A DNA stretch of 64,000 bases from Mytilus californianus (taxonomy: Eukaryota). The number at the start of each line of letters is the position of its first letter. The first letter of the stretch is position 1. The position numbers are program-made. The stretch covers positions 13,268,001 through 13,332,000 of the forward strand of contig NW_026262593.1 of the NCBI RefSeq assembly GCF_021869535.1, in the 5' to 3' direction. Positions 18,388 through 24,300 of this stretch are shown here, piece after piece.

Positions 18388-21300
18388 CGATTCTAGAAAA
18401 ATCATTTCTAGACTTTAAAATTTAAAAAAAAAAAAGATTTTCTCACAGGGTCAAAAGTTAAAACATCAAAATAGTTCTAGTTTACAAGACATATGTATGT
18501 ACAAAATGCAGTTAACCTTCTCGTCACCATGACATGTCATAATTAAGTTAGCAATACAATGCACCAGTCGACATTCCATGATCAAAATAAGTTTAACAGA
18601 GTCAATCTAGGTGTATGAATTTCTTGGTAAAGGCTTTTTTTGAAAAATAATGTAACAAGTTTCTTTTGTTAGCAAAATACCAAAAATAGACAATATTGAG
18701 TTAAGATGTAATTCACAAACAAATCATTAAATAGTAATAAAGAATAGTTTATTCATATTTAAACTATGACCTGGTTTACATTTTTCACTGAAATATCAGA
18801 AAACTCCCTGTAGAACTTATGAATATATAGCTTTTGTGAATCTGATAAGAATGTGGCACTTGACAAATTATACTGTCTAACAATGAAATTGAACAATTTA
18901 TTTTAAACATTCGTTATTACAATTGGTCATTTAATCAATAATCGAAAGGTTATTCAAAATCCATAAACTTGTATCACGGTAATATACTAATTTCAAATTG
19001 TTTAAAATGGAATTTTCACCTTTTTGGCGCTTTCGCTTGTTAACCATTTTCATCAGCATTTGTCTAGTTAATGTTGGTAAATGTGACTGTGGTGACGGGA
19101 TAAAGGAGTGTCAGTATAGAGAATGGTCCTCATGGGGAAGCTGTAACAAGTCAGTAAATACTACAAAGAGAAGTCGTGCAATTTGCTGTCCACCTGCCAT
19201 TAAGATTTACGATGCATGCCTTACGCATTGTAACATAACAACTAACCCATTACAGGCGTTTGAAGAAAGGAATTGTAATGCCATTTTCAAGACGAGCAAC
19301 AGTAAATGTAGGTAGAATGATAAAATAAAAAAATGAAGCTTTTTGTGTTGTTTGAAGCATACACAGTTTAAGCATATATGCATGAAGTTTTTGACCGAGC
19401 GAAACTGGCAAGTTCAATATATGGAAACAAGTAATTAAGAATTCAACATATATGTTGGTTTTTTTTTCGAAATATTTGTCAATGACCTCATGAAAGGTGC
19501 ATTATAAAGTCATGTGCCGCCCGAATCAAATTAATTATCAACGGGTTCTGAAAGAAGGGTTTTATGGAAATTGTGACTGTAAAGGCGATTTCGAAATTTG
19601 TGCCGTAATGGAAACAGTTTTGATACTTGATAATACAATTGTTGAGCGCCAGATGAATAAAAATAACAAAGAAGCAATTTATAAAATAGAGAAATTGAAA
19701 CCACCTCAATTTTGAAATGAAAATCAGTTGTGTTCCCTGATTTTTTTTCTTGATAACTGAATTTAAACATTTACATAAGTTTAATTGGTAGCATTAGTCT
19801 TAAATAATTCCTTTTTTGACAGTACCGTTATCGAACGGACGTCGTTGATAGATAAAACTTTAAACAATCACTTTGAAATTTTAGTGACAGAATGAATACG
19901 TTTTTGTTCAAGTTTTTCTTTAAGATAGGAATATTAAGTTGTATCTCGCTCGTAATTGGAGACGTAGGAAAATGTCCAAGTGGGACACAATTTTGTCATT
20001 ATAGTCCTTGGCTTCCATGGGAAAGTTGTAATTTGACAAGCTCTGGAGAGTTCAAGCAGACCAGACAGCGAAAACTATGTTGTAAGATTATAAAGGACTG
20101 CTTCAAGACTTGTAATATCAGTAGTAGCACTTATGGATCCATGATCAAGGAAGAAAGGATGTGTATAGATGGAATAGCTGAATCAACAAAATGTAGGTAC
20201 TTTCTCTCTCGGCCCCATCCCCTATGGAATTTACTAACCCTCTATTGGTCCGTAGGAGGGCAGTAGGAAACCATATAACTTATAATATCTGCTCCTGCAA
20301 TTGTACCGCATGCCCACCTTCTTCAAGAGACATACTAGCATATTGGCTGGTAAATGACGTCACAGAGGCGATTTTGAAGATTTTTTCGGTGAAGATACGG
20401 CACTGAACAAACGTGTTATAGATTCAATTTTACTGTGCTAATTTTTTAAAGGAAATAATGATTTCTTATGTCAATTTGTCAATAAACATATACACAATTA
20501 TACTCCGGGTGTGATGCATAGATTGTTTCCTTTTTTACAGCATCCACTGGAATGATAGTTGGAATTTGTTTTGGAGTTCTGATTCTCTTACTAACTGCAC
20601 TCGCTGTGACTTTGGTGCTGCTACACAGGTATAAATAGAAAAATAACGAGATATAAAAAAAAAAAAAATCATTTATTCGTCAAGATTATCTGAGTTGATT
20701 TTTCGATGCTAATGAACCCCATATAAAAGTTAAGTGCTCTGACATCCAGCTTTTTATGTTACTACATGTACCCTATGTATATAAATCATGTTATAAGAAG
20801 AACAATGACTTACGTTTTTCTATTGGTCATTTGTTATTCTAACGATTACGATTACATAGGACATTTGCATACTAAAAGTAAACAACACCTACATGTAAGA
20901 ATCCCTGCACATGTTGATGTGTTTGTCTTAAATAAGGAGCCTTTTCAGTGTTTGACATTAATATTGTATTGTTTCTAAGTTTTTGTCTTACACAAATGTC
21001 GAGGTAGCGAGACGTAACGATCATGGTTTAAGTTTTATTTATACATTAATAACTTTGGAATTTTATGAAATTTGGGCAGAAGTTTGTTAATTACCAAATG
21101 TAGATTTTTTACGTATTTACTGATAAATGGGCTTAATTTTTTGCATTTAACATTTAAAGATGAAAATAATGTTGACATGATAAATTTGTTTATCGTCCTT
21201 CACTACGCCTATATCACCCTGGTCACTCACTTCGTAATTCTCGTATCACGGCTTTGAGACGAGAGCAGGCATTATCAGCGACGTCACAATGTCTTAGGAG

Positions 21301-24300
21301 AAGTTATCACCGACGTCACATTTGTCTTAGGAGAAATTATCAGCGACGTCACAATGTGTGAAGAGACGTTATCAAACTTGCTTTCGTCAAGCGTTAAACG
21401 GACTTAGGGAGGGAGAAAAGACCAGTAATAGAACGATAAACAGATAATCGGGTTTTCTTCGTATAGATATCGTAAAATATCAGCCGCTCGACACAATGTG
21501 AACCTTTTAAGCTCGTTTGCTGCGCTCACTCGTCAAAAAGGTCCACATTGTGGCTCGCAGCTATTTTACGATATATATCAATGTGTAGAAAACCGATAAT
21601 TTATACAAAAGTTCATGGATTGTTATGAATCTTGAACAGAAGCTAATCTTCAAGATGAAGAACAAGCATCTGAAGATAAATGTTTGATTACAATTTTTTT
21701 TAACTTTATAAATAAGACTTACTTTTTACAGTCGATATTACATTTTTTCACTCACAACAGCAATCGCAGGCGAGAAACACGGTTCTGCTTACGAATTTTG
21801 TTTTAACTCGACACAATTTAAAACTTGAAATAAGTTTAAATGTCAATCGACACCAAAATATAAAACACAAATCAGACATTTTAAGGACATCATACGGTCT
21901 CCGGCAATTAAACAGTGTCAACACAATACATTATACATTATGTTAAAATGTCAGATTGTTTTGGGTCATACGATGGTGATAATCAACTTATTATACATCA
22001 ATAATTTTGAAGTTCTACGTTTCGGCCGAAAAAAAAACCATTCATTTGACAATGTTTTTTTCGGGGTAGCAATATGCTCTACCACTCTCTCAGCTATGTG
22101 TTATTTATATATTAATGTTAAAATCGCTCCGAGTTTAAAATGTATATAAAATGATAATTGGTGCATGTAAGTACATCATGAATGATTTTGGCGTGACGGC
22201 TTCAATCATGAGTATGATGAATCGAATTTCGGCATGTACTAATACAATGTTAAATCATTATCTTTAGTATTTAGGTGAAATATGTCTCGTTGCGCGCTGT
22301 TATTCTCCAAGATGATCATCTACTCAGTAGTCAGGGCTTCAATGAACGTATTTTATCAATATAACAATTCCATGGTGCTTCGCTACTGACAAGATTTTGA
22401 ACAAACTTAAATTCTACTTTGATTAGATTAGAAATTGTTATGAAACAAATGTGTCAACTTTGTCCTAAGATGAGTTTGGCTTTTTCCTCCTCATGGTCAT
22501 ACAAGTTAGTCCTTCACGTGTTTAGATCTTATTCATCCTTGGCTTCTTTTTTTTTTGGTTTGGGCGTTCCTGATGAAGGTAAATCTAGAAAAGCGCTTCC
22601 TACGCAATAAATAAATTGTTAATGCATAAAGTTGCTTCTGATTCTAAAGTCGAGACTACTTTATTTCACAGTTTAAAAATGGCGGTGAACATTTTGACGT
22701 AGCAATTGTACTTAGTTTAAAGGAATGCTACACGTTAAATATGTTTAATAATTTTGCTATACCTTACTGTGCCCTTTTATAATAACAATTGCTTAAATAT
22801 TTTACCAAAATTGCAGTTTGAATTTATATCTATAAACTAATATAGCTAAGTATCAATCAAGTATAGTGTAATAATATCAGATTATTACATGGCATTTTTC
22901 ATATCAGATGTATTATCAGCCATATTGACATTACTTTCTCGTCAAATATAAAAATATATTATACTGTTGTTATTCCTCTCTTTTGAGACATATGATAGAA
23001 ATATTTCATATCGGATGTATTACATTTTCTCCATTGTTGAAGCATATGATAAAAAGATCATAACATGTCATTTTTCATATCAGATGTATTATCAGCACTC
23101 GAGCCTTAGGCTCTTCGGCTGATATTGAACCTTGGACTTATAGTATATCTGGTATGAAAAAATGCCATGTAATAATCTGATAATATCAGCCCGCTAAACA
23201 CCATTTCGGAAAATATGGAATTCACGTAAATTTTATGCTATTATTATACAGTAAAAATTATAAGTTATTTACTCAAAGTATATGATAACAAATATTTTCA
23301 TCAATACTTTTATCGTGTTTGACTGTACCTAAGTCTTTGATTTTTCAAGCAAAGTTTGTGCTTTGTCTTCATAATTTCGATTTTGGATTACAAATTTAAC
23401 AGAAAAGGTATCTTTTTATGATTTTTAACTATAAGCGGTTAAGACCAATCTGAATCAAATTCACATCCTGTAACCATACTTTGCGTCCAAGGAGAATCGT
23501 GGACACGGGCTCTATATTTTTCAACCAAATTGTTCTATAACTGACGTTATAAATGCCATCATTACTCCTTTTTTAAATATAGTATGTTAAATGCTAGTTG
23601 CTATATGATAAAAGGCGAAATTGTGAAAATGTTGATTTTTTATTTTTTCTCTTCTTTCTTTCTTAGGTTTAAGAAGATTGCACTGTTCACAAGATTGAGA
23701 GCAATTTGGCATAAAGACGCCGATACAAAAACAGAAACTTAACTCTGAAAGTGATTGCAGATGAACTTAAATATCTACATTGTTAGCAGATGAAGCAATA
23801 AAAGTTGATCAACAAAAAGCAATCATAGTGTTAATTTACAAAAAAAAAAAAACACCAATTAAACAATAATTCATAACAGCTAAACTGTCTTAGAGTCTAT
23901 TCACATTCTACCTGTCCTAATACCAAATCATATTTTTAGTCAGATTGGATTTAATACCCTCCTCACTAAATGCTTATTCTATTGAGACCAAAAGCATAGC
24001 CACAACATTGACAAAAACTTCTTTTTACCACGGTCATAGCTTCAAATGAGGCAACCGAAACATCAGCCGCGACTAGTAGCCGTAATGTGTACTTTACTTC
24101 TAAAGTTATGATTTGCCTATATATTTAGCGTCTGCTTATATATTTCAACGAAAACGTGGCCTTATCAAAGAAAAACTGTCAATTATTCCATTATTTTCGT
24201 CCGTCGTCCGGTGTTACCTATGGTGAACATTTGATTTTATTACCACTTAAAGATCTGTTTTTATTTTTCCGTGATTATAACAAAAAATTTAAATTATCAT

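What the first reader, a model, noticed from the sequence alone, without database searches (positions are those of the whole stretch)
19007..23742. Two paralogous variable first exons feed one constant TM + tail (small cell-surface TSP1-like receptor)
Seen: exons A (19007-19307) and B (19892-20192) are each exactly 301 coding nt. Each has its own ATG and signal-peptide-like start, a diverged TSP1-like domain with a shared Cys/Trp pattern (VGKC..C.Y..W..W.SCN..R.R..CC..C...CNI..EER.C), and the same AAAT|gtaggt phase-1 donor. Only one TM exon and one tail exon follow. No good phase-compatible acceptor joins A to B. Inference: alternative promoters give two 154-aa receptors with different ectodomains and the same anchor. 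This is the variable/constant design known from clustered protocadherins and UGT1, here in a small invertebrate surface protein and possibly immune-related.
Basis: partly seen in the sequence, partly recalled or inferred. Interest (0 to 1): 0.68.

Follow-up and report, generated by a model that had tools for sequence, protein, structure and literature searches.

The report
Two alternative first exons, one anchor
A small animal gene seems to have two old, diverged copies of its first coding exon ahead of one shared membrane-anchor exon, a layout already known from larger gene clusters, and no transcript data were available to show how it is used.

Summary
Exons A (19007-19307) and B (19892-20192) are each 301 nt, start with ATG and a signal-peptide-like stretch, and share 34 invariant residues, including 8 Cys, Y..W..W and R.R (BLASTP E 4e-11). 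Both end in the same 11 nt spanning the donor. Synonymous sites are saturated (pS 0.73) while pN is 0.43, and both frames stay open. So both copies have been kept by selection.

The window holds only one TM exon (20541-20628) and one tail exon (23667-23742). The variable/constant gene model is therefore the most economical reading.

It remains a sequence-only inference. No transcript or comparative data could be reached, and promoters cannot be read from this AT-rich DNA.

One point needs correcting. A second GT, 4 nt downstream, gives an in-frame A-to-B join, so phase-compatible joins do exist.

"TSP1-like" is only weakly supported. All Pfam scores are below threshold, and the best PDB match is an F-spondin TSR at E 4e-4, covering the N-terminal half only. 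The fold could not be tested. Nothing here supports an immune role.

The design is already known from UGT1, protocadherins and chelicerate sDscam. This looks like a new, minimal member of a known kind.

The parts
19007..19307 (+). Variable exon A. It carries an ATG, a signal-peptide-like start (about residues 1-23/25) and a Cys-rich TSR-like ectodomain with 9 Cys after the signal. Sequons lie at residues 47, 51 and 76. It ends one base into a codon (phase-1 donor AAT|GTAGGT).
19312..19313 (+). Second GT, 4 nt downstream of the exon A donor (TAG|GTAGAA, phase 2). If the donor is not used at all, the frame stops at TAG 19313-19315 and an AATAAA follows at 19324.
19308..19891 (+). A-B spacer of 584 nt. 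It would have to hold exon B's promoter if B is transcribed on its own. It has one TATAWAW at 19680, a GACGTC at 19838 and weak AG acceptors at 19885 and 19891 (pyrimidine fraction 0.53). It is not repeated elsewhere in the window.
19892..20192 (+). Variable exon B. It carries an ATG, a signal-peptide-like start and a TSR-like ectodomain with 8 Cys after the signal. Sequons lie at residues 47 and 75. It has the same phase-1 donor AAT|GTAGGT and a second GT at 20197.
20541..20628 (+). Constant exon 1, 88 nt, with acceptor ...ttttttacag. In the frame set by the phase-1 donors it encodes a 27-residue uncharged stretch (KD maximum 3.16), that is, a transmembrane helix. Its donor CAG|GTATAA is phase 2. 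Read-through would add three residues and then stop.
23667..23742 (+). Constant exon 2 (coding part): a basic 25-residue cytoplasmic tail and stop TAA. Its acceptor has 100% pyrimidines at -22..-4, the highest value among the 13 acceptors that passed the filter, out of 392 AGs between 20651 and 28974. AATAAA follows at 23797.

Best explanation
This is one small gene with a duplicated first coding exon. Exon A or exon B is joined to the single transmembrane exon (20541-20628) and the short tail exon (23667-23742). Each variable exon carries its own start codon, a signal peptide and a roughly 75-residue Cys-rich ectodomain with 8 conserved Cys. The N-terminal half of that ectodomain resembles a spondin-type thrombospondin repeat.

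The products would be two type-I membrane proteins of 154 residues with different ectodomains (about 35% identical) and the same anchor and basic 26-residue tail.

The likely selection mechanism is the one described for UGT1, clustered protocadherins and sDscam. Each variable exon has a 5' splice site but no good 3' splice site. The exon at the 5' end of the transcript, set by promoter choice, is therefore the one spliced to the first constant exon.

Shown here: the two exons are real paralogues, both under long-term purifying selection, with conserved donors and a single set of constant exons in the window.

Inferred: the splice junctions, the signal peptides, the membrane topology, the use of exon A, and promoter choice as the selector.
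For: - The exons are intact and paralogous.
- Their frames are open far more often than shuffled versions: 11 and 5 of 20000 shuffles stay open.
- pN is 0.43 against a saturated pS of 0.73, giving pN/pS 0.59.
- The ends of both exons share 11 identical nt spanning the donor.
- Both exons share sequons after SC and after the fourth-from-last Cys, as expected for an extracellular domain.
- The starts are signal-like, with basic n-regions and T at codon position 2.
- There is no AG between the in-frame stop and the ATG of A, read directly.
- With the phase-1 donor, the only good in-frame partner is the TM acceptor. 18 of 72 AGs give a junction stop, and the single domain-preserving join into B is a GAG.
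- The TM and tail exons are single-copy, and there is no third A/B-like exon in 64 kb.
- The tail acceptor has the highest pyrimidine fraction (1.0) of the 13 acceptors that passed the filter, out of 392 AGs scanned.
- The same layout is documented for UGT1, where the variable exon encodes the signal peptide plus the N-terminal domain (PMC1885805, passages seen), and for sDscam (PMC4835542).
Against: - No transcript, CAGE or cross-species evidence could be obtained.
- No shared promoter motif or convincing core promoter was found upstream of either exon.
- A second GT 4 nt downstream is about as close to the donor consensus, by my own reading of consensus rules. It allows in-frame A-to-B joins at 19885 and 19891.
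- Exon A left unspliced ends after two more codons, with an AATAAA 9 nt later. It could therefore be a stand-alone secreted product.
- After signal removal, exon A has an odd number of Cys (9) if spliced at the phase-1 donor.
- Both hydrophobic starts contain internal phase-1 AGs (TAG at 19066-67 and 19927-28; read). These could serve as acceptors from an unseen upstream exon.
Confidence: 0.55

Rival explanations
1. Only exon B belongs to the membrane-protein gene. Exon A is a separate unit. It would be either a one-exon gene for a secreted protein of about 102 residues (read-through to TAG 19313-19315, poly(A) signal at 19324) or a recently silenced relic of the duplication.
For: The unspliced A frame ends two codons after the donor, and AATAAA lies at 19324. 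Read-through adds a Cys and makes the Cys count after the signal even (10), whereas the spliced form has 9. B lies 348 nt from the TM acceptor and A lies 1233 nt away (coordinates).
Against: The 7 intronic bases after the exon A donor are identical to those of B, although synonymous sites are saturated. That is not expected if A's donor were unused. A[AT]TAAA occurs about once per 333 nt on this strand, so the signal at 19324 may be chance. A relic would not keep 100 open codons and all 8 shared Cys.
Confidence: 0.2
2. A and B are internal, mutually exclusive (or upstream-fed) phase 1-1 domain exons of a larger gene. The hydrophobic 'starts' would be intronic pyrimidine tracts, and the true acceptors would be the TAGs at 19066-67 and 19927-28. 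The signal peptide would lie in an unseen upstream exon.
For: Both candidate acceptors are phase 1 and sit behind fairly pyrimidine-rich DNA. The pyrimidine fraction of the A start is 0.61, and the positions are read. That domain exons such as TSR exons are commonly phase 1-1 is recalled, not tested here. About 10% of animal genes carry tandemly duplicated exons, often mutually exclusive (PMC9013439, introduction read).
Against: Both frames extend upstream exactly to an ATG with A at -3, and then meet a stop within 8 (A) or 5 (B) codons. Both have Arg/Lys n-regions, and the T enrichment is at codon position 2 rather than uniform. The pyrimidine fraction of the B start is only 0.48. No A/B-like or signal-bearing upstream exon was recognised in the 19 kb upstream, though I did not search for one specifically.
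Confidence: 0.08
3. A and B are read in one mRNA as a two-domain protein, using the second GT (19312) and an AG at 19885 or 19891, or the phase-1 donor and the GAG at 19962.
For: These joins are in frame, and the B frame then stays open for 126, 124 or 100 codons. In sDscam, transcripts containing two neighbouring variable cassettes were observed (PMC4835542, section 11).
Against: The acceptors are weak (pyrimidine fraction 0.53, or G at -3). The joins at 19885 and 19891 would place B's 12-residue hydrophobic core between two disulfide-rich domains. That would act as a membrane span and leave domain B, with its sequons, on the wrong side (inference). B's own ATG and n-region would have no purpose.
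Confidence: 0.07

Closest known systems
UGT1 (UDP-glucuronosyltransferase 1) variable/constant locus of vertebrates
   Same: Tandem paralogous first exons each encode a signal peptide plus the N-terminal recognition domain. Each is spliced to shared downstream exons that include the membrane anchor and a short cytoplasmic tail (PMC1885805, passages seen).
   Different: UGT1 has about a dozen variable exons and four constant exons, and it is an ER enzyme. This locus has two variable exons of 301 nt and two small constant exons. There is no sequence relationship, and no transcript evidence here.
Clustered protocadherins (Pcdh alpha/gamma)
   Same: A variable first exon carrying the ectodomain is joined to constant exons. 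The choice is made by promoter activation and cap-proximal splicing (PMC1885805 background; PMC4835542 section 11).
   Different: In Pcdh the variable exon also carries the TM segment and the arrays hold a dozen or more exons. Here the TM segment is in the constant part. That Pcdh promoters share a conserved sequence element is recalled, not checked. No shared upstream motif was found here.
Chelicerate sDscam 5' cassette arrays
   Same: This is an invertebrate example of tandem 5' variable cassettes with their own promoters, joined to constant exons (PMC4835542, abstract and section 11).
   Different: The cassettes have 2-4 exons encoding Ig domains, and there are roughly 50-100 isoforms. Here there are two single-exon cassettes with a TSR-like domain.
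Thrombospondin type-1 repeat, spondin subtype (Pfam TSP1_spondin; F-spondin TSR, PDB 1szl)
   Same: Both have C-x-Y-x2-W-x2-W-x-S-C followed by R-x-R about 10 residues later. The A+B profile matches 1szl at E 4.4e-4, and 7 of its 8 PDB hits are TSR chains. For B alone, 8 of 12 hits are TSR chains.
   Different: The match covers only the first 27-33 positions. Pfam scores are far below the gathering thresholds. The CSVTCG-type second Cys is absent, and the C-terminal half (CC...C...C...C) has its own pattern, giving 8 conserved Cys in about 75 residues.
THSD8-like small TSR proteins (ESM Atlas cluster, 115 aa, chordates) and Pfam DUF5544
   Same: These are small single-domain proteins. The THSD8 cluster is the first Atlas hit for A (0.89) and the second for B (0.87). 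A scores 22.2 bits on DUF5544.
   Different: Atlas scores below 0.9 are leads only, with 156 and 142 shared features out of 256. The DUF5544 score is below the 25-bit cut-off. No alignment to THSD8 could be made. Neither DUF5544 nor PF17698 occurs in the paper library (0 papers). THSD8 occurs once in each of 4 papers (listing only).

Membership tests
Thrombospondin type-1 repeat (TSR; Pfam TSP_1 / TSP1_spondin) | Score at or above the Pfam gathering threshold | tested here: not met
   B scores 17.2-17.9 bits on TSP1_spondin (cut-off 41) and 10.6-11.2 bits on TSP_1 (cut-off 21.6). A gives no TSP_1 or TSP1_spondin hit, only TSP1_CFP_C at E 0.15.
Thrombospondin type-1 repeat (TSR; Pfam TSP_1 / TSP1_spondin) | WXXWXXW tryptophan ladder and RXRXR arginine strand (features as listed in PMC5446238) | tested here: inconclusive
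   Both exons have Y-x2-W-x2-W, with Tyr in place of the first Trp, and a single R-x-R (R-S-R in A, R-Q-R in B). All of these are invariant between A and B. This is a reduced version of both motifs.
Thrombospondin type-1 repeat (TSR; Pfam TSP_1 / TSP1_spondin) | About 60 residues with five or six conserved Cys, including the CSVTCG-type pair (PMC5446238) | tested here: not met
   There are 8 Cys conserved between A and B over about 65-75 residues. There is no CSVTCG-like motif after the Trp ladder. A CC pair and a C-x3-C follow instead.
Thrombospondin type-1 repeat (TSR; Pfam TSP_1 / TSP1_spondin) | Elongated three-stranded fold with stacked Trp/Arg layers | not tested
   Structure prediction was not accepting jobs, so no model and no fold search could be made.
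Multiple-variable-first-exon genes (UGT1 / clustered Pcdh / sDscam type) | Tandem paralogous 5' exons, each with its own start codon and 5' splice site and without a good 3' splice site | tested here: met
   apply. There is no AG between the upstream stop and the ATG of A. B has only weak AGs at 19885 and 19891, with pyrimidine fraction 0.53.
Multiple-variable-first-exon genes (UGT1 / clustered Pcdh / sDscam type) | One shared set of downstream constant exons | tested here: met
   The TM and tail exons are single-copy in the 64-kb window. There is no TM-like exon in the 584-nt A-B spacer.
Multiple-variable-first-exon genes (UGT1 / clustered Pcdh / sDscam type) | Each variable exon preceded by its own active promoter | not testable with these tools
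   Only word counts were possible. There is no TATAWAW in the 400 nt upstream of A and one at 19680 upstream of B, against a background of one per 368 nt. No shared motif was found.
Multiple-variable-first-exon genes (UGT1 / clustered Pcdh / sDscam type) | Transcripts joining each variable exon separately to the first constant exon | not testable with these tools
Pfam DUF5544 | Score at or above the gathering threshold | tested here: not met
   A scores 22.2 bits (E 1.6e-4) against a cut-off of 25, and 18.7 bits for the mature part alone. B gives no hit.

The most novel reading that the evidence does not exclude
The locus may be a minimal, two-unit version of a protocadherin/UGT1-style variable-constant system. 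It would be built on a small TSR-like surface receptor in a non-arthropod invertebrate, with the ectodomain chosen by promoter choice per cell or tissue. It may also carry a second switch: two GT donors 4 nt apart are conserved in both variable exons. The upstream donor puts the next exon in its transmembrane frame. The downstream donor puts it in its other open frame, which stops one codon into the last exon. That would give anchored and soluble forms of each ectodomain, four products from four exons. Related species might carry larger arrays used for recognition of microbes or of self.
Probability: 0.08. Interest if true: 0.6.

Novelty: new member of a known kind. Interest (0 to 1): 0.3.

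Why it matters
If transcripts confirm the model, this would be a very compact example of the variable-first-exon design: two 301-nt exons, one 88-nt anchor exon and a 76-nt tail. It sits in an uncharacterised family of small TSR-like membrane proteins. That makes it a convenient system for asking how a duplicated first exon acquires its own promoter, and how cap-proximal splice choice works over only 0.9 kb.

It would not change current concepts. Tandemly duplicated exons are reported for about 10% of animal genes (PMC9013439, introduction). Variable/constant loci are established in vertebrates and chelicerates.

The protein family itself may be the more useful lead. It has a reduced Trp/Arg TSR core with 8 Cys, and possibly resembles THSD8.

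Tried and rejected
- **More family members or relic exons.** tblastn and an HMM plus motif scan over 1461 ORF pieces found only A and B. A 16-nt / 12-residue resemblance inside the A-B spacer (19565-19580; C-x-C-x6-C spacing as in A) is at chance level (BLASTP E 0.10; blastn E 0.78).
- **Duplication beyond the exons.** blastn at word size 7 found no flank similarity other than the exon ends. The spacer, the B-TM intron and the region upstream of A are not repeated elsewhere in the window.
- **Shared promoter element or docking/selector RNA pairing.** Only short AT-rich matches of 12-22 nt at 73-93% turned up. I did not take them as meaningful.
- **The large downstream ORF (28737-30635) as a long cytoplasmic tail.** Its likely acceptor at 28975 is phase 1, which does not fit the phase-2 TM donor. 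A phase-2 AG at 28808 does fit, but 28808-28974 looks intronic. I treat it as a separate gene.
- **The other open frame of the TM exon under the second donor.** 17.5% of 90-nt frames in the window are open, so this is not remarkable.
- **Opposite-strand and spacer ORFs.** 7 ORFs in or near the locus gave no Pfam match at E<=0.01.
- **Pfam on the TM and tail peptides.** No hits.
- **PDB search with A alone.** 2 hits, E 0.67 or higher, neither a TSR.
- **Tail query.** It was out of frame through a coordinate slip of mine. I repeated it correctly.
- **Structure prediction and fold search.** Structure prediction did not accept jobs, and I sought no fold by another route.
- **Paper not held.** Zhang, Haws & Wu 2004 (PMC314283) is not in the library. 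It is known here only from the reference list of PMC1885805.

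
Full report
**Setting.** The window has no N and is about 27-35% G+C throughout. It carries a LINE-like element with endonuclease and reverse-transcriptase domains, an intronless B-box/NHL ORF and several satellites. It has no tRNA or Rfam match. It reads as an AT-rich invertebrate-type animal genome, and I do not take it for human. 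No related animal sequence could be fetched. Everything below therefore rests on this one sequence plus profile libraries and papers.

**The observation.** It is correct in every coordinate.
- 19007-19306 and 19892-20191 each translate into 100 residues without a stop. Each is followed by one further base and GTAGGT, so each exon has 301 coding nt and a phase-1 donor.
- The stop-to-stop frames are 18983-19315 and 19877-20266. An in-frame stop lies 8 codons (A) and 5 codons (B) before the ATG.
- The two peptides align at 31/93 identities, E 4e-11.
- MAFFT gives 34 invariant columns. These include VGKC, C-x-Y-x2-W-x2-W-x-S-C-N, R-x-R, CC, C-x3-C-N-I and E-E-R-x-C.

**Is it more than chance?**
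- Mononucleotide shuffles of A and B stay open in 11 and 5 of 20000 trials. Across the window, 2.7% of 300-nt frames are open, mostly in transposons and satellites.
- A profile of A+B finds only A and B among 1461 ORF pieces (next best E 0.15), and the Trp/Cys motif occurs nowhere else.
- Similarity is confined to the coding parts and the donor. The flanks do not align.

**Age and selection.**
- Over 91 aligned codons, pS is 0.73, essentially the value for codon-shuffled pairs (0.78).
- pN is 0.43 against 0.71 for shuffles, giving pN/pS 0.59.
- 12 of the 34 identical residues use different codons.
- The duplication is therefore old and amino-acid sequence has been conserved since.
- Both copies keep an open frame, all 8 shared Cys and two shared N-glycosylation sequons, so neither looks like a decayed relic.
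- Put in register at their ends, the exons share 11 consecutive identical bases, AAATGTAGGTA, and 7 of these are intronic. At saturated divergence this points to selection on the splice donor in both copies.

**Gene model.**
- With the phase-1 donor, the acceptor at 20541 (CAG, pyrimidine fraction 0.74) gives a Ser junction codon. It places the next exon in a frame that encodes a 27-residue uncharged stretch with KD maximum 3.16.
- That exon is 88 nt and leaves in phase 2.
- The acceptor at 23667 has 100% pyrimidines at -22..-4. This is the highest value among the 13 acceptors that passed the filter, out of 392 AGs scanned between 20651 and 28974.
- It continues with a basic 25-residue tail, TAA at 23740-23742 and AATAAA at 23797.
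- The total is 465 nt, that is 154 residues.
- The TM and tail exons have no second copy in the window.
- I left out building or searching a joined protein, so full-length properties remain unchecked.

enumerated all 72 AGs between 19320 and 20545.
Only 19962 joins B's frame while keeping the domain, and it is a GAG.
- A second GT lies 4 nt downstream in both exons (TAG|GTAGAA in A, TAG|GTACTT in B). By my own reading of consensus rules it is about as close to the donor consensus.
- This second donor is phase 2 and is in frame with the AGs at 19885 and 19891, just before B's ATG. Phase-compatible A-to-B joins therefore exist.
- I rate them unlikely. The acceptors are weak (pyrimidine fraction 0.53). 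The product would also bury B's hydrophobic core between two disulfide-rich, glycosylated domains.
- With the second donor, the TM exon is read in another frame that happens to stay open and stops one codon into the tail exon. Open 90-nt frames occur 17.5% of the time here, so this alone is not evidence for a soluble isoform.

**Are the hydrophobic starts signal peptides or intronic pyrimidine tracts?**
- Against it: both frames run up exactly to an ATG with A at -3; both have two basic residues before an 11-12-residue uncharged core; T is enriched at codon position 2 (0.52 and 0.56), as in the TM exon (0.61); and the B start is only 48% pyrimidine.
- There is no AG at all between the upstream stop and the ATG of A.
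- I take them as signal peptides. No SignalP-type tool was available.

**What cannot be decided.**
- Whether A is transcribed, whether it is spliced to 20541, and whether the selector is promoter choice all remain open.
- TATA-like words are as common as one per 368 nt. None lies in the 400 nt before A and one lies at 19680 before B.
- No shared upstream motif or convincing intron pairing was found.
- Unspliced, A ends two codons after the donor with an AATAAA at 19324. A stand-alone secreted product is therefore a live rival.
- In sDscam, downstream variable cassettes as well as the cap-proximal one can be spliced to the constant exon (PMC4835542, section 11). Mixed behaviour is therefore possible.

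**What the ectodomain is.** Evidence for a thrombospondin type-1 repeat is consistent but weak.
- B scores 17-18 bits on TSP1_spondin (cut-off 41) and 11 bits on TSP_1 (cut-off 21.6).
- A instead scores 22.2 bits on DUF5544 (cut-off 25).
- Against PDB sequences, B's best hit is the F-spondin TSR 1szl (E 0.0018), and 8 of its 12 hits are TSR chains.
- A alone gives 2 hits, neither a TSR.
- The A+B profile improves 1szl to E 4.4e-4, and 7 of 8 hits are TSR chains. The aligned part is only profile positions 6-38.
- The Atlas lists only TSR-type clusters among the named top hits for both exons, plus a THSD8 cluster at rank 1 (A, 0.89) and rank 2 (B, 0.87). All of these are below the 0.9 level at which the tool treats a hit as more than a lead.
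- Compared with the TSR features listed in PMC5446238 (passages seen), the Trp ladder is reduced to Y-W-W and the Arg strand to R-x-R. The CSVTCG motif is absent, and there are 8 conserved Cys rather than 5-6.
- The fold could not be tested because structure prediction was not accepting jobs.
- I therefore call it a TSR-like Cys-rich domain, not a demonstrated TSR.

**Immune role.** Nothing in the sequence bears on it. TSR proteins have been implicated in symbiont uptake in cnidarians (PMC5446238, passages seen) and proposed as candidates in sacoglossan molluscs (PMC7663992, listing only). This is background, not evidence.

**Comparison and novelty.**
[quoted passage not shown] The constant exons encode the common part with the membrane anchor (PMC1885805).
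- Clustered protocadherins and chelicerate sDscam use the same principle.
- Tandem exon duplication is reported for about 10% of animal genes (PMC9013439, introduction).
- A two-exon version in a small surface protein is thus a new member of a known kind.
- The protein family may be uncharacterised. DUF5544 and PF17698 occur in 0 papers, and THSD8 occurs once in each of 4 papers. These searches cover only the held library, and supplements were closed.

**Verdict.** I give the variable/constant model a confidence of 0.55. The main rival, at 0.2, is that exon A is not joined to the anchor. Interest is 0.3.

Noticed in passing
window 34586-38131 (- strand): LINE-like retroelement. A 1043-aa ORF carries RVT_1 (E 2e-31) and an endonuclease-RT match. 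The adjoining 137-aa ORF matches Exo_endo_phos. A single stop at 37718 separates the two ORFs.
   Followed up: partly
window 57192-58481 (+ strand): Intronless 429-aa ORF with a B-box zinc finger (E 1.7e-9) and NHL repeats (E 3.5e-8). It is TRIM-like, but no RING match was found in the ORF.
   Followed up: partly
window 28975-30635 (+ strand): A 552-residue Ser/Lys/Asp-rich exon behind a good acceptor (ttgttttgcag), with no Pfam or PDB match. Its phase-1 acceptor would be in frame with the A and B donors, and a phase-2 AG at 28808 would be in frame with the TM-exon donor. I treat both as coincidence and the exon as part of a separate downstream gene.
   Followed up: partly
window 3952-10531 (- strand): About 6.5 kb of nearly contiguous long ORFs (97-375 aa). 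The 9 ORFs tested gave no Pfam match. This may be an uncharacterised mobile element or a decayed large gene.
   Followed up: partly
window 19838-21350: The palindrome GACGTC occurs 13 times in the window against 3.3 expected, and 0 of 100 shuffles reach 13. Five of the 13 lie within this locus: one 54 nt before B's ATG, one in the B-TM intron, and three in a 32-bp tandem repeat at 21272-21374 inside intron 2. I have not tested whether these are regulatory sites (the word is CRE-like) or part of a repeat element.
   Followed up: no
window 22871-23186 and 21463-21578: MITE-like inverted repeats inside the 3-kb intron between the TM and tail exons. One pair has 29-nt arms, 97% complementary and 258 nt apart. 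The other has nested 22-27-nt arms.
   Followed up: no
window 53027-56397: A block of satellites with periods of 30 bp (7.6 copies), 33-36 bp (about 21 and 33 copies) and 350 bp (2.7 copies). They create long spurious ORFs on both strands.
   Followed up: no
window 13499-13933 and 41696-42127 (+ strand): Two ORFs share a 57-residue block (39% identity, E 2e-12) and have no Pfam match. They look like copies of a dispersed repeat.
   Followed up: partly
window 19565-19600 (+ strand, A-B spacer): A short stretch resembles the start of exon A's mature domain. It has the same C-x-C-x6-C spacing and matches 14 of 16 nt. It could be a relic of a third copy, but it is statistically at chance level.
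   Followed up: yes
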